Shown here: piece after piece, positions 8-5,872 of the stretch
Layout: each line of letters opens with the position of its first letter
Numbering within the stretch: the stretch's first letter is position 1
IMG/VR virus record: IMGVR_UViG_3300012942_000033
Location: 1 to 35,511 of that record
Source of the DNA: a virus
Lineage: Duplodnaviria; Heunggongvirae; Uroviricota; Caudoviricetes
Direction: 5' to 3' (one strand)
DNA: 35,511 bases
Position numbers and translations under genes: made by a program
Notes under the pieces: model-generated
What the model saw: only the letters and a program-made list of their open reading frames with translations
What the model was told of the DNA's origin: nothing
The model's database searches: none

Positions 8-2491
8 ATGACCTATCCACTACAGTCGCCAGGTACTTCTGTTACCGTCACCGACGAATCCAATTACGCAACGGCTGGTGAAGGCACTGTTCCGCTGATC
101 ATCATCGGCACTCATGAATACAAGGCGCTTCCTTCAGGAACTGGCGTCGCTGAGGGCACCCTGCCTGAGAACGCAAACAAGCTCTACCCAATCACGAGCC
201 AGCGCGAACTCCTCCAGACGTTCGGTAATCCAATCTTCTACACCAAGAACGGCACATCCGTTCATGGCTATGAACTCAATGAGTTTGGTCTTCATGCCGC
301 CTACCAGTATCTTGGTGTCGCGAACCGCGCATTTGTGATTCGCGCTGCGATCGATTACGCCCAGCTTATGCCAACCGCAACAGCACCACGTGGTGAGGCT
401 GCGCAAGGAACTTGCTGGCTTGACACTCTGAACAACACCTGGGGCATTTACGAATGGACCGGTTCACAGTGGGATGATCGCGACCTCTACGTTTTGAATG
501 AACTATCGGATCTAGACCAAAACGCCGCTGAACAGGTTACTGGCCAGAAGATTCCTGATGCCGGCACTGGTGAGGATAATGACCTTGCTATGGTCGTCTT
601 CTACAGCAAGAAGAGCCTATACCAGAAGCTAGGTGGTGCTTGGTATCTAGTTGGTAGTGATGATTGGAAGACTACCAAGGCACAGGGTGGTGCGACACCA
701 AACCTTATCTACAACACCTTTGCTCCAGAGACGAGCACGGTTGGTGACATTCTTGTGAAGATCACCCCTGCTAAATTGTTTGGTGGTATCTCGAGTGCTG
801 CTACCTGGATTTTGAAGACGTTCAATGTCACTACTGGTGCTTGGGATCAGAATCTGGTTCCACTCTACCCTAGCTTCTATGAGAATAGCCTGGCAAAGAC
901 CAGTGGTTCTGTGTTTGTTTCGGTTGGTGCGGATGATGCTCATCCGGCTACTGGAACGATCTCCACAGATTCAGACGGTAACGCGATCTACACGGTAACC
1001 GATCCTGGCACGGCTGTTTTTGAATTCCACACCTACACCAGCTCTTGGGGTGCGTTGGGTGAGGAAGCTGGCCCTGATGAACCAACGAGTGATCCTGATG
1101 AGGGCACTCTCTGGTACAATAACCAGAATATCGTGGTAAACATCAAGGTTTGCGCTCCTGTCAATGGCGTCTCCTCTTGGGTGCCTTACAGCACTCAATA
1201 TCCGGCAACGGATTCCAACGGCGTTCTGCTCCAGGGTAGCGCTCCATCGGTACAATCGGGCGGTGATCCACTAGTCGATAATGACCTCTGGATTGACACC
1301 TCGGATATGGAGAACTTCCCCAAGATGTATCGCCGTACTGGTGGTGCTTGGAAGGCCATTGATGTTGCGAATAACGTCGACCCAGTCAACGGCATCGCGT
1401 TTGGTGAAGAAGCTACGACTTCCGCGTTGGCTTTCCCCACTGGCATGAAACTGTTTGACCTCTCGGCATCGACCAATGATGTCAAGCAATTCACGGGTGG
1501 TCAGTGGACAAATGTCTCGGGTTATGACCTAGATGGTGTTCCATTCTTTGGTCGTAAGGCCCAACGCCAGATGATCGTGAGGGCACTCGCGGCAACAATC
1601 TCTGATAACCAGGATATTCGAGCGGAAACCGTTTACTTCAACCTGCTTGCGGCTCCTGGCTACATTGAGCTCATTGATGAGATGGTCACGCTGAATACTG
1701 ACATGAAGCAGGTTGCTTTCATCGTTGGTGATACGCCGATCCGTTTGGATTCAAGTGGTGCTTCGATTACTCAGTTTGCCAATAATGCCGCTAACGGTAA
1801 TACCGAAGATGGTGTGAGCACTTTCGACTCATATGTTGGTATGTATTACCCTTGGGGTCTAAGCACTAACGTCGATGGTAATGAGGTTATGGTGCCACCA
1901 AGCACTATCGCGCTTCGCACCCTCGCCTACAGTGACTCGGTGAGCTATCCTTGGTTGGCTCCTGCTGGTTTCAACCGCGGTCTTGTTACCAATGCATCGA
2001 GTGTTGGTTACCTCGATAGTGCGGGTGAGTTCAAGGCAGCTATGTTGAATGAGGGTCAGAGAGACATCCTCTACCAGAACAACATCAACCCAATCGCGTA
2101 TATTCCAAACCGCGGTCTGGTTGTATATGGTCAGAAGACTCGCCAGGCAGAGGCAACTTCGCTTGATCGTATCAACGTAGCGCGTCTAATCAATTACCTG
2201 CGTTACAATCTCGATAACATCAGCAAGCCATTCCTCTTCGAGCCAAACGACCTCCACACGCGAGATTCAGCGAAGACGACATTTGAGCGTTTCCTGGCTG
2301 ATCTAGTTGGTCTGCGCGGCCTCTACGACTTTGTTGTGGTTTGTGACGAATCCAACAATACGCCAGAGCGTATTGACCGACACGAGCTTTGGGTGGATAT
2401 TGCTATCCAGCCAGTACAGGCCATCGAGTTCATCTACATTCCAGTTCGCATCGTGGCAACTGGAGATGATCTCGGAACCCTATTCACCTAA
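8..2491 (+). CDS. gp18: Contractile tail sheath protein (T4 gp18-like), 827 aa
   Basis: N-terminal 'LQSPGTSVTVTDES' and 'ITSQRELLQTFGNP'; C-terminal sheath motifs 'PWLAPAGFNRG', 'LYQNNINPI', 'YGQKT', 'LDRINVARL', 'FLFEPND', 'VCDESNNTPERID', 'EFIYIP'. Confidence 0.95.
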   Translation: MTYPLQSPGTSVTVTDESNYATAGEGTVPLIIIGTHEYKALPSGTGVAEGTLPENANKLYPITSQRELLQTFGNPIFYTKNGTSVHGYELNEFGLHAAYQYLGVANRAFVIRAAIDYAQLMPTATAPRGEAAQGTCWLDTLNNTWGIYEWTGSQWDDRDLYVLNELSDLDQNAAEQVTGQKIPDAGTGEDNDLAMVVFYSKKSLYQKLGGAWYLVGSDDWKTTKAQGGATPNLIYNTFAPETSTVGDILVKITPAKLFGGISSAATWILKTFNVTTGAWDQNLVPLYPSFYENSLAKTSGSVFVSVGADDAHPATGTISTDSDGNAIYTVTDPGTAVFEFHTYTSSWGALGEEAGPDEPTSDPDEGTLWYNNQNIVVNIKVCAPVNGVSSWVPYSTQYPATDSNGVLLQGSAPSVQSGGDPLVDNDLWIDTSDMENFPKMYRRTGGAWKAIDVANNVDPVNGIAFGEEATTSALAFPTGMKLFDLSASTNDVKQFTGGQWTNVSGYDLDGVPFFGRKAQRQMIVRALAATISDNQDIRAETVYFNLLAAPGYIELIDEMVTLNTDMKQVAFIVGDTPIRLDSSGASITQFANNAANGNTEDGVSTFDSYVGMYYPWGLSTNVDGNEVMVPPSTIALRTLAYSDSVSYPWLAPAGFNRGLVTNASSVGYLDSAGEFKAAMLNEGQRDILYQNNINPIAYIPNRGLVVYGQKTRQAEATSLDRINVARLINYLRYNLDNISKPFLFEPNDLHTRDSAKTTFERFLADLVGLRGLYDFVVVCDESNNTPERIDRHELWVDIAIQPVQAIEFIYIPVRIVATGDDLGTLFT

Positions 2492-2497
2492 GAAGAA

Positions 2498-2529
2498 CAA
2501 GAGCGGATGGTTCCTACCATCCGCTCTTG
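2498..2529 (+). terminator. Perfect 14-bp hairpin after the sheath stop codon (probable terminator or processing site)
   Basis: CAAGAGCGGATGGT-tcct-ACCATCCGCTCTTG; no immediate U-tract (TTTT about 8 nt downstream). Confidence 0.6.
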
Positions 2530-2543
2530 CCATGACTTTTAGA

Positions 2544-2572
2544 TTGCACTTAGGGCCAGTTTGTCATAAAAC
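2544..2572 (+). promoter_or_regulatory. Candidate sigma70-like promoter for the downstream structured RNA
   Basis: TTGCAC-N17-TAAAAC, enclosed by GCCATGA(2529-35)/TCATGGC(2576-82) inverted repeat; imperfect match. Confidence 0.3.
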
Positions 2573-2577
2573 AGATC

Positions 2578-2940
2578 ATGGCATCGAGGGCTAACGCCCT
2601 GAACCCATAATGTGACCATTGGTGACTGGGCTGTGTGCTGACACATAAAGGTATCTCCGTAGTGGCGTGCGGGATTGGTCATAGCTCTGGAATGAACCAG
2701 ATAAGGTGTGGCGAGGTCCTTTTAGGGTCTCCAGGAGTTTGAAGGTTTCGGCTTTCTAAGGTAACAGGTGCGGGAAGAACTCCCCCGCGTCCCCTTCTAG
2801 GCGTTCGTGTAGGGGGTTAAGTAGATCCGCTGATTCGGCCAGGCTCAGAAGGATCGAATATGGTGAGGAGGCAGGCCCCGGTCATAAGTCCTCAGTGATA
2901 TGGCATCACCCTGTTACCCGATCGGTGAGGTGTTTTCTTT
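2578..2940 (+). ncRNA. Candidate large structured ncRNA (~360 nt), family unknown
   Basis: No credible ORF; more than 10 stems incl. UUCG and UAAC tetraloops; long-range helices 2760-68/2910-18 (9 bp perfect) and 2611-18/2676-83; G-U pairs indicate + strand; ends in T-rich tract. Confidence 0.6.
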
Positions 2941-2966
2941 GACATCCTGTCATCCTGTGTTAAATA
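2939..2966 (+). promoter_or_regulatory. Candidate promoter TTGACA-N16-TAAATA
   Basis: Perfect -35 at 2939-44; TAAATA (2961-66) also matches the late motif seen elsewhere in this window. Confidence 0.5.
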
Positions 2967-2969
2967 GGC

Positions 2970-3272
2970 ATGATGGATAAGGAAATGACTGTGGTAGAAG
3001 CGTTCTACCGTGATGTCTCGGATCTGCTGGGCATCGAAAGCAATTACGAATACAACCCCTACACTCGTGGGGGAACGTATCGAACCCGCTGGAATAACCG
3101 CACGCCTGGCAACGGTCGGTTCGAGGGGTTCGGTTTGATTCGGTTCTTTGGCCCGAATGTGATCCACGTTGTGCTTCACAAACCCGTTCAGATAAACCGT
3201 GTCTACGATAGCACGGAAGCGGTTCTCGATGCGCTGCGAAAAGCAGTTGACACAGAGAACCAGGCGTCTTAA
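2970..3272 (+). CDS. Hypothetical protein, 100 aa (start could be 2973 or 2985)
   Basis: ORF between promoter and Ro60 leader; Arg/Trp/Gly-rich core RTRWNNRTPGNGRFEGFGLIRFFG; no family recognised. Confidence 0.7.
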   Translation: MMDKEMTVVEAFYRDVSDLLGIESNYEYNPYTRGGTYRTRWNNRTPGNGRFEGFGLIRFFGPNVIHVVLHKPVQINRVYDSTEAVLDALRKAVDTENQAS

Positions 3273-3279
3273 TAGGCGC

Positions 3280-3452
3280 TGATCATATCGACCCGTCTGT
3301 TGGTATGATCAAGAGATAACCGTTCATATCTCGAATTCAAAGCTGTGGTTTTGAATCTGAGTGGCCGTCTCCACTCCTTACGATCGATGTCTTCCGGCCC
3401 TAATGTCAGGGGCCAACCTTGCTCATGGGTTTCATGAGCCGAATAAGGAGTG
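3280..3452 (+). promoter_or_regulatory. Structured 5' leader of Ro60: six tandem hairpins plus anti-SD element
   Basis: Hairpins at 3280-3311, 3313-32, 3335-56, 3359-76, 3396-3414, 3421-39; CACTCCTTA (3372-80) is the exact reverse complement of TAAGGAGTG (3444-52, the SD). Confidence 0.75.
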
Positions 3453-3458
3453 ACTACT

Positions 3459-5144
3459 ATGACCAACTACACCAAGACTCTGGCTGGCGTGAATACCCAC
3501 GTGACCACGACCCCTCAGTCGAAGCCCATTGTGGGCCGAGAGGCTGAGATGGCCAAGAATAACGCGGGTGGATTCACCTTCACTATCACGCCCTGGGATC
3601 AGCTGGATCGGTTCCTGATCCTTGGCACCGAGGGTGGAACCTATTACCAGAAGGAGCAGGAGCTTACCGTGCAGAACGCACAGAATGTTCTGCGTCTCAT
3701 CGGGCAGGATGGCGTTCGGGTTGTGAATCGTGTCGTTGAGATCAGCGATGCTGGTCGTGCGGCCAAGAATGATCCTGCGCTCTTTGTGCTCGCAATGGCA
3801 AGTGCGGCTGATGATGAGGCAACGCGTCAGGCGGCTCTAGCAGCTCTGCCGAAGGTTGCTCGTATCGGTACCCATCTGTTCCATTTCGCGGCCTTCGTTG
3901 ATGGTATGCGTGGTTGGGGACGTGCTCTTCGTCGCGCCGTAGCGAACTGGTATCTCGAGATGCCGCTTGACCGTCTGGCCAACCAGGCGATCAAGTATCA
4001 GGCTCGTGATGGTTGGTCGCACCGCGATATGCTGCGTCTGGGCCACCCCAAGACATTTGAGGCAGAGCGTGATGCTATCCTGCGTTGGATGGTCGGTGGT
4101 ATGGATGCCGTGGCATCACAGGAGTATCACCGTGGTTCGACGATCCTTGACAATGAGGTGACTTTGGCCCGTAGCGATGCGACTGACATCCTACACTCGC
4201 AGATCCAGGCATTCGAGGCGGCTAAGAAGGCCACTTCGGCCAAGGATATCATCAAGCTGATCAAGGATGCTGATCTTCCTCGTGAGGCTATTCCAACTCA
4301 GTTCCTCAACGACGCAAAGGTCTGGGAGGCGCTGTTGGCGAATATGCCGCTCGGTGCGATGATCCGTAACCTGGGCAAGATGTCGAGCGTTGGTCTGCTG
4401 ACCTCGATGTCACAGGCGGAGAAGCTCGTTCGGGCTAAGCTGTCGGATGGAGATGTGATCCGCAAGGCACGTCTACACCCTATGGCCATCTTGTCGGCAT
4501 TCCTGACCTACGGTAATGGTCGTGGTGTCAAGGGCAGCAACACTTGGTCTCCAGTTCGCGGTGTTGTGGATGCCTTGGATCAGGCCTTCTATGGTTCGTT
4601 CAAGAACGTGACCCCCACGGGCAAGAACACTATGTTGGCTTTGGATGTTTCGGCATCCATGACCTGGGAGAACTGTGGTGGTGTGCCTGGATTGACTCCT
4701 CGGGTTGGTTCGGCAGCTATGGCTCTGATCACCGCGAATGTCGAGAGCTCCTACGAGTTCGTGGCATTCACGAGTGGTAGTGGCGGCCTGAGCGAGCTCA
4801 AGGTTTCGCCGCGCCAGCGGCTGGATGACGTGGTCAGCACGATCAACCGGCTGTCGATGGGTGGAACGGATTGCGCTCTGCCGATGGTTCATGCGCTTTC
4901 GGCTAAGCTGCCTGTTGAGTCGTTTGCTGTCTACACGGATTCAGAAACGTGGAGTGGTAGGATTCAGCCTTCGGAAGCCTTGAAGAAGTTTCGTGCTTCT
5001 ATGGGTATTCCGGCAAAGTTGGCGGTCGTTGGTATGACTTCTACTGGATTCAGTATCGCCGATCCTCAAGACGCCGGTATGATGGATTTCGTGGGATTTG
5101 ATGCCAGTGCTCCAGCAGTAATGGCTGATTTCTTTCGAGGCTGA
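3459..5144 (+). CDS. rsr: Ro60/Rsr RNA-binding protein (TROVE + vWA domains)
   Basis: TROVE motifs 'NNAGGF', 'LDRFLILGTEGGTYY', 'RIGTHLFHF', 'GWGRALRRAVANWY', 'KYQARDGWSHRDMLRLGHP'; vWA MIDAS 'LALDVSASM', 'GGTDCALP', 'VYTDSETW'; SD AAGGAG 8 nt before ATG 3459. Confidence 0.95.
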   Translation: MTNYTKTLAGVNTHVTTTPQSKPIVGREAEMAKNNAGGFTFTITPWDQLDRFLILGTEGGTYYQKEQELTVQNAQNVLRLIGQDGVRVVNRVVEISDAGRAAKNDPALFVLAMASAADDEATRQAALAALPKVARIGTHLFHFAAFVDGMRGWGRALRRAVANWYLEMPLDRLANQAIKYQARDGWSHRDMLRLGHPKTFEAERDAILRWMVGGMDAVASQEYHRGSTILDNEVTLARSDATDILHSQIQAFEAAKKATSAKDIIKLIKDADLPREAIPTQFLNDAKVWEALLANMPLGAMIRNLGKMSSVGLLTSMSQAEKLVRAKLSDGDVIRKARLHPMAILSAFLTYGNGRGVKGSNTWSPVRGVVDALDQAFYGSFKNVTPTGKNTMLALDVSASMTWENCGGVPGLTPRVGSAAMALITANVESSYEFVAFTSGSGGLSELKVSPRQRLDDVVSTINRLSMGGTDCALPMVHALSAKLPVESFAVYTDSETWSGRIQPSEALKKFRASMGIPAKLAVVGMTSTGFSIADPQDAGMMDFVGFDASAPAVMADFFRG

Positions 5145-5146
5145 AC

Positions 5147-5180
5147 GGATAAGGGAGGCTCCTAAAAGCCTCCCTTATTC
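5147..5180. terminator. Hairpin between convergent rsr and HNH genes (probable bidirectional terminator)
   Basis: GGATAAGGGAGGCT-cctaaa-AGCCTCCCTTATTC, 14 bp with one G-U; overlaps the HNH stop codon. Confidence 0.7.
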
Positions 5181-5872
5181 ATATCTTCATAGAGTTGCAG
5201 GATCGTCTTCCATGAAGACGATCCTTTCTTTATGTTGTCAGTGCTTGATAAGACTTGCAGATTAGACCAATGACCTATAACTTCAGGTTGGATGTCATGA
5301 TCATAACCATCAGCTTTTGAGAAGATGTGATCTAGGTGGTAATCCGAATGTAGGATTTTAAGCCCCTGTGGATCAATAATGTGCTTCATAGCCTTCCAAC
5401 TACGTTCGGTGTATTTCTGCACTTCTCTAACGTACCGTTGGTAATCTGCGAGACTCTCTGGATCATGATAGTGACCATTCATACAGCCAGTGATTCTGGC
5501 CTTTTGACCAGCTAGTTCATATGAACTCAATCCAGTTGTTGGATCTTTAATAGATCTGGTTGATGCTGTCTTCCTAGCCGTTCTTTGGTAGCAATCCAGA
5601 CCATCTTTGATATCGGCTCTTTTGGTTTGCCTCATCTTCTTAGCTGATTTCAGGTAGCCATCTCCCCCTCTGGATTTAGCATTCTTCTGACTAGTGCGTT
5701 GAAAGATCGTCAGACCATCATCACCAATTTGGTTCATAGTAGCTATTCGAGACCTTTGACGGCGGCCAATAACTGCTGGACAGGATGATTGATGCTTTGA
5801 GCAACACCAGAGACCTGATTTGAATTGGTGAATAGCTGTTTGGTTACAACCGTAATCACAGGTAGTCATCAT
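5162..5872 (-). CDS. Free-standing HNH (His-Me finger) homing-endonuclease-like protein, 236 aa
   Basis: C-terminal 'YHLDHIFSK...HWSNLQVLSSTDNIKKG'; N-terminal Cys cluster CDYGC/CCSKHQSSCP; helical internal repeats; antisense to neighbours. Confidence 0.8.
   Translation of the reverse strand: MMTTCDYGCNQTAIHQFKSGLWCCSKHQSSCPAVIGRRQRSRIATMNQIGDDGLTIFQRTSQKNAKSRGGDGYLKSAKKMRQTKRADIKDGLDCYQRTARKTASTRSIKDPTTGLSSYELAGQKARITGCMNGHYHDPESLADYQRYVREVQKYTERSWKAMKHIIDPQGLKILHSDYHLDHIFSKADGYDHDIQPEVIGHWSNLQVLSSTDNIKKGSSSWKTILQLYEDMNKGGF

What the first reader, a model, noticed from the sequence alone, without database searches (positions are those of the whole stretch)
3280..3376. Four back-to-back hairpins presenting the same NCYGU loop in register (threonine-anticodon-like)
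Seen: hairpins 3280-3311, 3313-32, 3335-56 and 3359-76 are separated by only 1-2 nt. Their stems differ, but each has an 8-nt apical segment N-C-Y-G-U-N-N-N (cCCGUcug, aCCGUuca, gCUGUggu, gCCGUcuc). A fifth hairpin (3396-3414) has a 7-nt loop AA-UGU-CA with UGU in anticodon register. Conserved loops on variable stems is the signature of multi-site protein-binding RNA. Established: CGU and UGU are tRNA-Thr anticodons, and the E. coli thrS operator uses CGU/UGU anticodon-mimic hairpins bound by ThrRS. Inference: the array may be an anticodon-mimic operator or decoy (for ThrRS or a host anticodon nuclease), or a binding platform for Ro60 or the upstream ORF. The Ro60 N-terminus (MTNYTKTLAGVNTHVTTTPQ) is also Thr-rich.
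Basis: partly seen in the sequence, partly recalled or inferred. Interest (0 to 1): 0.8.

Follow-up and report, generated by a model that had tools for sequence, protein, structure and literature searches.

The report
Three-loop RNA cassette before phage Ro60
The gap before a giant phage's Ro60 gene holds a real, conserved cassette of four RNA hairpins, three of them showing the same CCGUC loop, which probably docks an unknown factor that controls Ro60 translation; it does not look like a threonine tRNA anticodon arm.

Summary
The four hairpins are real, at the stated coordinates, on the + strand. Three of them (HP1, HP2, HP4) carry a CCGU(C/U) loop. HP3 is a plain tetraloop hairpin, not an NCYGU loop.

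The same four-hairpin cassette occurs in five related giant-phage lineages. In all 12 tabulated CCGU-type loops (four complete lineages) the motif is kept, while the stems of HP1-HP3 are rewritten with compensatory changes.

The cassette is accessory. It is missing from at least eight other lineages that keep the rest of the leader, it occurs once per genome, and it appears to move by recombination.

HP4's 3' arm is part of an anti-Shine-Dalgarno sequence. My best reading is therefore a multivalent docking platform for an unknown factor, coupled to an anti-SD switch on Ro60 translation.

The threonine-anticodon reading fails the structural tests: loop length, no U33, no purine 37, no fixed register. 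GUC (Asp) fits as well as CGU (Thr). One cassette-bearing phage does encode its own ThrRS, but two ThrRS-bearing relatives lack the cassette, so that link is weak.

Hairpin 5 belongs to a different element that is conserved in every relative. No expression data could be obtained. The same scan had already noted the anti-SD pairing on this window.

The parts
3280..3311 (+). HP1: 13-bp hairpin with apical loop CCGUCU (3293-3298).
   Evidence: RNAfold. Homologous hairpins in L139, L011 and L010 have entirely different stems but the loop CCGUCC. In pairwise comparisons, 24 of 33 base-pair positions changed on both sides and all remain canonical.
3313..3332 (+). HP2: 6-bp hairpin with loop ACCGUUCA (3319-3326).
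   Evidence: Homologous loops are CCGUCU, ACCGUCCG, ACCGUCCCG and ACCCGUCAUAG, on covarying stems.
3335..3356 (+). HP3: 9-bp spacer hairpin with tetraloop UGUG. It is not a member of the loop motif.
   Evidence: Homologues carry GUAA (L011, L010, L017, L021) or AACA (L139) tetraloops on covarying stems.
3359..3376 (+). HP4: 6-bp hairpin GAGUGG/CCACUC with loop CCGUCU (3365-3370). The 5' arm acts as an anti-anti-SD and the 3' arm is the start of the anti-SD.
   Evidence: The stem sequence is conserved (GAGUGG/CCACUC in window, L010 and L021; GAGUG/CACUC in L139; GAGG/CCUC in L011), unlike HP1-3. This is as expected if the 3' arm must also pair with the SD.
3372..3380 (+). Anti-SD CACUCCUUA, the exact complement of 3444-3452. 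It overlaps the 3' arm of HP4.
   Evidence: Read directly from the sequence. It forms in the MFE of the longer transcript. An equivalent complementarity of 5-9 nt is present in all five array-bearing lineages.
3382..3387 (+). GAUCGA motif between the array and HP5, marking the 3' boundary of the cassette.
   Evidence: Present in 14 of 15 related leaders. In array-less relatives it follows the ORF100 stop codon within 2 to about 36 nt.
3396..3414 (+). HP5: 6-bp hairpin with loop AAUGUCA. It is part of the universal leader, not of the cassette.
   Evidence: Present in 15 of 15 leaders. The loop reads N-AUGUCA, and two stem pairs show compensatory changes.
3417..3448 (+). HP6 (3421-3439) extended by CCUU (3417-3420) pairing with AAGG (3445-3448), which masks the 5' half of the SD.
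   Evidence: RNAalifold consensus over 15 leaders, with one compensatory pair; window MFE.
3444..3461 (+). Shine-Dalgarno region UAAGGAGUG (3444-3452) and the rsr start codon AUG (3459-3461).
   Evidence: Sequence. The ORF carries TROVE plus the Ro60 vWA domain. The SD is predicted paired in every modelled state.
2970..3272 (+). ORF100: a conserved 100-aa protein gene immediately upstream and probably co-transcribed. The array begins 8 nt after its stop codon.
   Evidence: Ten homologues, mean column identity 75%. No Pfam or PHROG family. AF2 model with pLDDT 78 and an alpha-beta5-alpha fold, with no clear structural match.

Best explanation
The four hairpins form one discrete, accessory RNA cassette. 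It lies in the intercistronic leader between a conserved 100-aa ORF and the Ro60 (rsr) gene of a roughly 460-kb phage. The cassette displays three copies of the apical-loop motif CCGUC(Y), on HP1, HP2 and HP4, plus one spacer tetraloop hairpin (HP3).

Its last hairpin is built from an SD-like 5' arm (GAGUGG) and an anti-SD 3' arm (CCACUC, continuing as CUUA). HP4 and a 9-bp anti-SD:SD helix therefore exclude each other.

Proposed mechanism (inferred, not shown): a sequence-specific factor, most likely a multimeric RNA-binding protein, binds the three loops. Binding at HP4 holds the anti-SD inside HP4 and so shifts the leader toward a translatable state. Without the factor, the anti-SD:SD helix adds to the SD masking already supplied by the universal HP5/HP6 junction.

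Shown: the structures, the covariation, the conserved loops, the anti-SD complementarity, one copy per genome, and the patchy distribution.

Inferred: that a factor binds, which factor it is, and the direction of the effect.
For: - Structure: the fold is significant and strand-specific.
- Conservation: five lineages (window, L011, L139, L010/L017, L021) share the same HP1-HP2-HP3-HP4 order. CCGU is present in all 12 loops of the four complete lineages, and CCGUC in 10 of 12. The stems of HP1-3 are almost fully replaced by compensatory changes.
- HP4: its stem alone is conserved in sequence, and its 3' arm plus the next bases complement the SD in all five lineages (9, 8, 8 of 9, 7 plus 2, and 5 nt).
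- Energetics: in the window the two states are close, -69.7 kcal/mol with the anti-SD:SD helix against -66.0 with HP4 enforced. P(SD unpaired) rises from 0.00 to 0.11.
- Locus specificity: the array occurs once in the complete 435,856-bp relative and once in the 125-kb record, so it belongs to this locus and is not a dispersed repeat.
- No RNA partner nearby: there is no complementary GACGG site in the window and none at a conserved position in relatives, which points to a trans factor.
- Not a known family: no Rfam family and no tRNA matches.
Against: - No binding or expression data exist.
- The cassette is absent from at least eight related lineages, including close ones (86% Ro60 identity), which keep ORF100, HP5/HP6 and rsr. 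Whatever it does is dispensable.
- The SD is predicted masked even when HP4 is enforced (P unpaired 0.04-0.26). In L010 and L021 HP4 is already the preferred state. The switch is therefore at most a modulator.
- No candidate binding protein co-varies cleanly with the cassette.
Confidence: 0.45

Rival explanations
1. Anticodon-arm mimicry read by an aminoacyl-tRNA synthetase. The loops imitate the tRNA-Thr anticodon CGU, or equally the tRNA-Asp anticodon GUC. Free ThrRS or AspRS, phage or host, binds them and couples Ro60 translation to tRNA availability.
For: - The complete array-bearing genome G001 encodes a truncated ThrRS: 398 aa, TIGR00418 474 bits against a cutoff of 383.65. It lies next to about 54 tRNA genes, including tRNA-Thr CGU, UGU and GGU.
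- Three complete or nearly complete array-less relatives have no HGTP anticodon-domain protein.
- The L139 HP4 is a 5-bp stem with the 7-nt loop CCGUCAC. It matches the phage tRNA-Asp loop UUGUCAC at GUCAC.
- Translational control through anticodon-loop mimics is established for thrS and for yeast AspRS (PMC9976931).
Against: - Only one loop (L139 HP4, CCGUCAC) has the canonical 7-nt length, and by loop register its anticodon reads GUC, not CGU. No loop in any lineage has U33, and none places a purine directly after the CGU triplet. Compare UUCGUGU in the E. coli operator and UUNGUAA in the phage tRNA-Thr genes.
- The register is inconsistent: CGU falls at loop positions 2-4, 3-5 or 4-6.
- There are three sites, but ThrRS is a dimer (textbook knowledge).
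- The contigs of 372,409 and 958,096 bp carry both the phage ThrRS and Ro60, as judged by a match of contig lengths. The leaders of those lineages, read from same-cluster copies on 21-kb and 481-kb contigs (L134, L135), have no array.
- aaRS content is patchy in this clade anyway: SerRS-like in G002 and G004, class IIb in G003.
- There are no such hairpins upstream of the phage thrS.
- The Thr-rich Ro60 N-terminus does not track the array.
Confidence: 0.13
2. A Y-RNA-like effector module. The array, together with the adjacent GAUCGA(A) motif and the HP5/HP6 junction, is a Ro60-bound RNA that may be processed from the mRNA. Its three identical loops would tether a multimeric host enzyme, for example trimeric PNPase through its KH/S1 arms, as Y RNAs do.
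For: - Y RNAs are encoded next to rsr and are modular: a Ro60-binding stem carrying a CGAA-type motif plus an effector-binding part (PMC4201824).
- Phage phiLo Ro60 binds two upstream Y-like RNAs and host PNPase (PMC12135203).
- A GAUCGA(A) motif follows the array in 14 of 15 leaders.
- There are exactly three CCGUC hairpins in all five lineages.
Against: - No Rfam Y RNA or YrlA hit, even at E = 10.
- The strict GNCGAAN0-1G motif is not met: G sits at -3, and the window reads CGAU.
- No tRNA-like T or D arms.
- The motif lies 3' of the array, not on the 5' strand of a terminal stem.
- The array is absent from most relatives, although all of them keep Ro60.
- Nothing is known about PNPase's sequence preference for CCGUC.
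Confidence: 0.15
3. A purely structural element: a stabiliser or insulator between two cistrons, or a self-contained tertiary fold. On this reading the CCGUC loops are conserved for RNA-RNA contacts or folding, not for a trans factor.
For: - Strong back-to-back hairpins start 8 nt after the ORF100 stop codon.
- HP3 carries a GNRA tetraloop (GUAA) in the L011, L010/L017 and L021 lineages. Such loops often dock into receptors.
- The cassette is dispensable in many relatives.
Against: - No complementary GACGG sequence lies nearby in the window.
- Three identical loops that are invariant across lineages, while loop length varies from 6 to 11 nt, fit sequence-specific reading better than a fixed tertiary contact.
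- The window's HP3 loop is UGUG and L139's is AACA, so the GNRA loop is not conserved.
Confidence: 0.12
4. A decoy or tripwire for a host anticodon nuclease or other loop-specific RNase. The loops would offer Y-G-U-N targets, as in the tRNAs with GUN anticodons.
For: - Both the array loops (CCGUC) and the universal HP5 loop (AUGUCA) contain YGUC.
- The phage carries a large tRNA set.
- Earlier notes of this scan report RNA-repair genes in this genome. I did not check them.
- In bacteria, Ro60 operons respond to tRNA damage (PMC7790460, abstract seen).
Against: This rests entirely on motif resemblance recalled from the literature. No nuclease was identified. One copy of an mRNA leader is a poor stoichiometric decoy. 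The loops lack U33.
Confidence: 0.05

Closest known systems
E. coli thrS translational operator (ThrRS autoregulation through anticodon-arm mimics)
   Same: Hairpins in an mRNA leader next to the ribosome-binding site, with a G-U-containing loop motif repeated on more than one hairpin. The regulatory logic is a protein that reads loops.
   Different: - Operator domain 2 has a 7-nt loop, UUCGUGU, with U33 and purine-37 equivalents. Here the loops are 6-11 nt, begin with CC, and are followed by a pyrimidine.
- The operator has two sites for a dimer; here there are three.
- The operator controls thrS itself; this array precedes rsr.
- The operator blocks ribosome binding directly; here the link to the SD runs through an anti-SD arm.
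CsrB/RsmZ-type RNAs and CsrA-bound leaders (the same short loop motif on many different stems)
   Same: The architecture is identical in principle: several adjacent hairpins whose stems drift while a short apical motif is kept. In some mRNA leaders one site overlaps the SD region.
   Different: - The motif is CCGUC, not A(N)GGA.
- There are only three sites.
- The element is embedded between two cistrons of a phage mRNA.
- No CsrA-like partner was identified, and it is unknown whether it acts as a sponge or a switch.
Bacterial and phage Y RNAs (YrlA, Yrn1, phiLo Yrl1/Yrl2)
   Same: Structured RNA encoded directly beside rsr, with a CGA(A)-containing motif adjacent and a modular design in which one part could recruit an effector.
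   Different: - No Rfam hit.
- No tRNA-like T/D domain.
- No terminal stem carrying GNCGAAN0-1G on its 5' strand.
- It lies inside the rsr leader and is absent from most close relatives.
Three-element anti-SD switches in bacterial and phage leaders (anti-anti-SD / anti-SD / SD)
   Same: HP4's 5' arm (GAGUGG) resembles the SD, and its 3' arm plus CUUA is an exact 9-nt anti-SD. The two foldings exclude each other and are close in energy.
   Different: The element that would set the switch is an apical-loop motif repeated on two further upstream hairpins. The SD is additionally masked by a second, universal structure (HP6 with CCUU:AAGG).

Membership tests
tRNA-Thr anticodon-arm mimic (thrS-operator type) | 7-nt apical loop on a short stem, as in an anticodon arm | tested here: not met
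   Window loops are 6, 8 and 6 nt. Across five lineages they are 6, 8, 9 or 11 nt, with a single 7-nt case, the L139 HP4. The references are 7 nt: E. coli operator domain 2 UUCGUGU and phage tRNA-Thr UUNGUAA.
tRNA-Thr anticodon-arm mimic (thrS-operator type) | U at loop position 2 (U33) directly before the anticodon-like triplet | tested here: not met
   C precedes CGU in all 12 tabulated loops and in the three L021 loops.
tRNA-Thr anticodon-arm mimic (thrS-operator type) | NGU triplet in a fixed register (loop positions 3-5), followed by a purine (position 37) | tested here: not met
   CGU falls at positions 2-4 in the loops that begin with CCGU, 3-5 in the ACCGU loops, and 4-6 in L139 HP2. 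The next base is always C or U. Read by register, the 6-nt and 7-nt loops give GUC (Asp), not CGU.
tRNA-Thr anticodon-arm mimic (thrS-operator type) | Lies in the leader of the synthetase gene it regulates | tested here: not met
   The array precedes rsr. The phage thrS of G001 has a short upstream spacer of about 50 nt with no such hairpins.
tRNA-Thr anticodon-arm mimic (thrS-operator type) | Co-occurrence with, or binding by, ThrRS | tested here: inconclusive
   - G001 has both the array and ThrRS. G002, G003 and G004 have neither.
- Two lineages with ThrRS and Ro60 lack the array.
- The window's contig ends about 20 kb short of the syntenic thrS position.
- Binding cannot be tested with these tools.
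Y RNA (YrlA / Yrn1) | Match to the Rfam covariance models | tested here: not met
   No hit at gathering score over the window, and no Y RNA or YrlA hit at E up to 10 over 2400-3600.
Y RNA (YrlA / Yrn1) | GNCGAAN0-1G motif on the 5' strand of a stem formed by the RNA's ends (PMC4201824) | tested here: not met
   The leader has GAUCGAUG in the window and GAUCGAA in the relatives whose leaders read CGAA. G is at -3 instead of -2, and the motif lies 3' of the array.
Y RNA (YrlA / Yrn1) | tRNA-like domain (T and D arms) | tested here: not met
   ARAGORN finds nothing in the window. No T-loop-like hairpin is present among HP1-HP6.
Y RNA (YrlA / Yrn1) | Encoded beside a Ro60 gene | tested here: met
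   The array ends 82 nt before the rsr start codon. The ORF carries TROVE plus the Ro60 vWA domain.
Multi-hairpin protein-docking RNA (CsrB/RsmZ principle) | The same short motif in the apical loops of three or more hairpins whose stems differ and covary | tested here: met
   CCGU is in 12 of 12 loops. For HP1, 24 of 33 pairwise base-pair positions changed on both sides and all remain paired.
Multi-hairpin protein-docking RNA (CsrB/RsmZ principle) | GGA-type motif bound by CsrA/RsmA | tested here: not met
   The motif is CCGUC. No GGA is present in these loops.
Anti-SD translational switch | An upstream segment complementary to the SD that is shared with an alternative hairpin | tested here: met
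   3372-3380 is the exact complement of 3444-3452, and 3372-3376 is also part of HP4's 3' arm (3371-3376). The complementarity is kept in all five array lineages.
Anti-SD translational switch | A change of translation when the switch is set | not testable with these tools
   Needs reporter fusions or toeprinting.

The most novel reading that the evidence does not exclude
The cassette is a tRNA-status sensor. Its three CCGUC loops are degenerate anticodon-arm look-alikes (CGU for Thr, GUC for Asp) read by a free aminoacyl-tRNA synthetase, such as the phage's own truncated ThrRS, or cut by a host anticodon nuclease. Ro60, an RNA-quality-control protein, would then be made only when the tRNA pool is damaged or depleted. 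That would be a phage-encoded link between tRNA-targeting defence and RNA repair.
Probability: 0.12. Interest if true: 0.85.

Novelty: new variant of a known kind. Interest (0 to 1): 0.5.

Why it matters
How phage Ro60 genes are controlled is, as far as I know, not established, and the RNA partners of phage Ro60 are only beginning to be described (PMC12135203). This locus offers a compact, testable RNA element.

The element has three identical loops wired to an anti-SD arm. It exists in natural 'with' and 'without' versions in otherwise near-identical leaders, which amounts to a ready-made deletion series.

Finding what binds CCGUC would identify a regulator or partner of phage Ro60. It would also settle whether the recurring association of phage Ro60 genes with tRNA-like RNA parts extends to bare hairpin loops.

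If nothing binds, the element is still a clean example of a recombination-mobile structured RNA cassette.

Tried and rejected
- Rfam at gathering score and at E up to 10: nothing in 3273-3449. ARAGORN: no tRNA or tmRNA in the window.
- Dispersed repeat or regulon: a scan of the 125-kb record for CCGTC/CCGTT-loop hairpins and a triple-motif pattern in five related genomes found only the rsr leader. The same pattern in five ThrRS-bearing, Ro60-less giant phages gave nothing hairpin-like, with counts like the control except in the GC-rich G007.
- Kissing partner: there is no GACGG in the window within about 1 kb upstream and 1.9 kb downstream, and none at a conserved position in relatives.
- HP4-based pattern in viral contigs: one unrelated GC-rich hairpin (L025), discarded.
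- ORF100 as an anticodon-binding protein: the Atlas listed an HGTP_anticodon cluster at TM 0.52. My better AF2 model (pLDDT 78) matched such domains only at Z about 5, deep in the noise. The best hit was Z 8.6 to Mediator Med17C, and Foldseek on PDB gave nothing below E = 0.4. The lead was dropped.
- Phage thrS autoregulation by similar hairpins: none upstream of the G001 thrS.
- AspRS or TGT as partners: no class IIb aaRS in G001, and no TGT in any of the five genomes.
- Minus-strand ORF 3269-3466 (65 aa) as the reason for conservation: rejected, because the segment is absent from most relatives and the changes in it are compensatory stem changes.
- Resemblance of CCGUC and CACCUCCUUA to 16S rRNA segments: recalled from memory only. 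A 5-mer match is expected by chance, and the anti-SD is explained by its own SD.
- P0125 (Ro60 88% identical, 125,051-bp contig): not on record for look-up.

Full report
**Setting**

The window is the first 35.5 kb of a 125-kb IMG/VR virus record that is about 27% complete. The record is collinear with complete relatives of 416-465 kb, so the source is a giant tailed phage.

The finding lies between a conserved 100-aa ORF (2970-3272) and a Ro60 gene (AUG at 3459; TROVE plus Ro60-vWA domains). Both lie between the tail-sheath and tail-tube genes.

**Observation**

- The opposite strand folds worse, and HP1 uses G-U pairs, so the structure is + strand RNA.
- The loops are CCGUCU (HP1), ACCGUUCA (HP2), UGUG (HP3) and CCGUCU (HP4).
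- Three loops therefore share CCGU(C/U), anchored at the 5' edge of the loop. HP3 does not share it.
- Nothing in Rfam and no tRNA matches.

**Comparative test**

I collected related leaders in three ways: with the Ro60 protein, with a 22-nt pattern from the HP5/HP6 core in viral and metagenome contigs, and through Ro60 homologues in public assemblies.

*Cassette-bearing lineages.* Five lineages carry a four-hairpin cassette in the same place and order: the window, L011, L139, L010/L017 and L021 (partial).
- HP1 loops: CCGUCU, CCGUCC, CCGUCC, CCGUCC.
- HP2 loops: ACCGUUCA, CCGUCU, ACCCGUCAUAG, ACCGUCCG, ACCGUCCCG.
- HP3 loops: UGUG, GUAA, AACA, GUAA, GUAA.
- HP4 loops: CCGUCU, CCGUUCCA, CCGUCAC, CCGUCACC, CCGUCUCU.

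*Covariation.* The stems of HP1-3 are almost completely different between lineages, yet every pair stays canonical. For HP1, 24 of 33 pairwise base-pair comparisons changed on both sides. The hairpins and the loop motif are therefore under selection as RNA.

*Cassette-less lineages.* At least eight other lineages have the same ORF100, the same GAUCGA motif, HP5, HP6 and SD, but no cassette: L014/L019, L012, L015, L013, L022, L023, L134, L135 and L136/L138. They have at most one unrelated hairpin.

*Phylogeny.* On a Ro60 tree the cassette sits in two separate clades, with an array-less lineage nested in one of them. This needs at least 2-3 gains or losses. L139's Ro60 groups with the window's clade, but its first residues are of the other clade's type, which points to recombination at the leader.

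*Copy number.* The cassette occurs once per genome.

**The rest of the leader**

HP5 (loop N-AUGUCA), HP6 and a CCUU:AAGG extension that masks the SD are present in 15 of 15 leaders, with compensatory changes.

**Link to translation**

I confirmed this and extended it.
- The complementarity is kept in all five array lineages, at 5-9 nt.
- It explains why HP4's stem alone is conserved in sequence: GAGUGG resembles the SD, and CCACUC begins the anti-SD.
- In the window the two foldings are close in energy: -69.7 kcal/mol with the anti-SD:SD helix against -66.0 with HP4 enforced.
- The SD is nevertheless predicted mostly paired in all states, because the universal HP6 extension and a proximal helix also cover it.

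**The threonine hypothesis**

*Against it.* I folded the real E. coli thrS leader. Domain 2 gives a 7-nt loop, UUCGUGU. The related phage's own tRNA-Thr genes have loops UUCGUAA, UUUGUAA and UUGGUAA.
- The array loops share only the three letters CGU with these. They lack U33, and a pyrimidine, never a purine, follows CGU. Their lengths are wrong, and they have no fixed register.
- By loop position, several of them read GUC (Asp) instead.
- The Thr-rich Ro60 N-terminus does not follow the array.

*In its favour.* The complete array-bearing genome G001 encodes a truncated ThrRS. Three complete or nearly complete array-less relatives do not.

*Follow-up of that lead.*
- The phage ThrRS clade has about 26 members.
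- Matching contig lengths shows that two further contigs carry both ThrRS and Ro60. Same-cluster copies of those lineages have no array.
- Synthetase content is patchy in this clade.
- The window's contig stops inside the tRNA cluster, about 20 kb short of where thrS would be.

The link therefore rests on a single genome.

**ORF100**

ORF100 folds confidently (pLDDT 78) into a sheet flanked by two helices. It has no convincing structural relative and no family.

**Verdict**

- The most likely function is a three-site docking platform for an unknown factor, coupled to an anti-SD arm that modulates Ro60 translation.
- The Thr-anticodon reading is not supported structurally. It survives only as a minority possibility, on the strength of one co-occurring ThrRS.
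- A Y-RNA-like effector module, a purely structural element and a nuclease decoy remain possible.
- Earlier notes of this scan describe other phage Ro60-like genes flanked by RNAs with tRNA-like or anticodon-arm heads. They are unverified leads and were not tested here.
- No expression data could be obtained.

Noticed in passing
window 3382-3452: A universal structured leader of rsr: GAUCGA, HP5 (invariant loop AUGUCA), the invariant linker CCAACCUUG, HP6, and CCUU:AAGG pairing that masks the SD. It is present in 15 of 15 related leaders, with compensatory changes. In several relatives the GAUCG segment also pairs with the spacer between the SD and the AUG, closing a three-way junction. It looks like a conserved translational operator in its own right.
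   Followed up: partly
window 2939-2975: A conserved promoter-like motif, TTGACA-N16-TGnTAAATA, ends 4-7 nt before the ORF100 AUG in the window and the relatives checked. ORF100 may therefore be translated from a leaderless mRNA, and the hairpin array would be intercistronic rather than a 5' UTR.
   Followed up: no
window 2970-3272: ORF100 is strongly conserved (mean column identity 75% over 10 lineages; invariant RWNNR-PGNGRFEG-G). It is always directly upstream of rsr, has an alpha-beta5-alpha fold (pLDDT 78), and has no Pfam or PHROG family and no clear structural relative.
   Followed up: partly
window 2570-2930: A non-coding stretch of about 360 nt between the sheath gene and ORF100 is highly conserved in four lineages (window, L002, L003, L006), with apparent compensatory changes (alignment A1). 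It contains GAUCGAAU (2864-2871), the same motif that follows the hairpin array. Another agent of this scan has already followed it up as a new RNA family (e1-5418385).
   Followed up: partly
L038:1486-2682 (G001, 435,856-bp relative): A truncated phage threonine-tRNA ligase of 398 aa (catalytic core plus anticodon-binding domain, no N-terminal editing domains). It belongs to a clade of about 26 phage sequences whose nearest cellular relatives are alphaproteobacterial ThrRS (about 61% identity), which hints at the host group. It lies next to a Bax1-I family gene and a cluster of about 54 tRNA genes.
   Followed up: partly
G001-G004 (relatives): The synthetase repertoire differs between otherwise collinear giant phages: ThrRS in G001, a roughly 430-aa class II core protein without an anticodon domain (probably SerRS) in G002 and G004, and a 599-aa class IIb synthetase in G003.
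   Followed up: no
L139:1201-1290 compared with window 3459-3548: L139's Ro60 is 88% identical to the window's overall, but its first 20 or so residues (MSNSKNTLMGAILPNQ) are of the other clade's type. This indicates a recombination breakpoint at the leader and 5' end of rsr.
   Followed up: no
window 5162-5872 (- strand); L134:3498-4202: A convergent endonuclease gene follows rsr: HNH/endonuclease VII-like in the window (PHROG hits), and a GIY-YIG/NUMOD3 gene at the same place in L134. Different homing-type endonucleases at one locus fit with this being a recombination hot spot.
   Followed up: no
G000:C1:61781-62288 (outside the window): ARAGORN calls a permuted tmRNA-like gene with tag peptide ANDNTVEVALAA in the phage record. 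Five tRNA genes lie at 116,994-125,191, where the contig ends.
   Followed up: no
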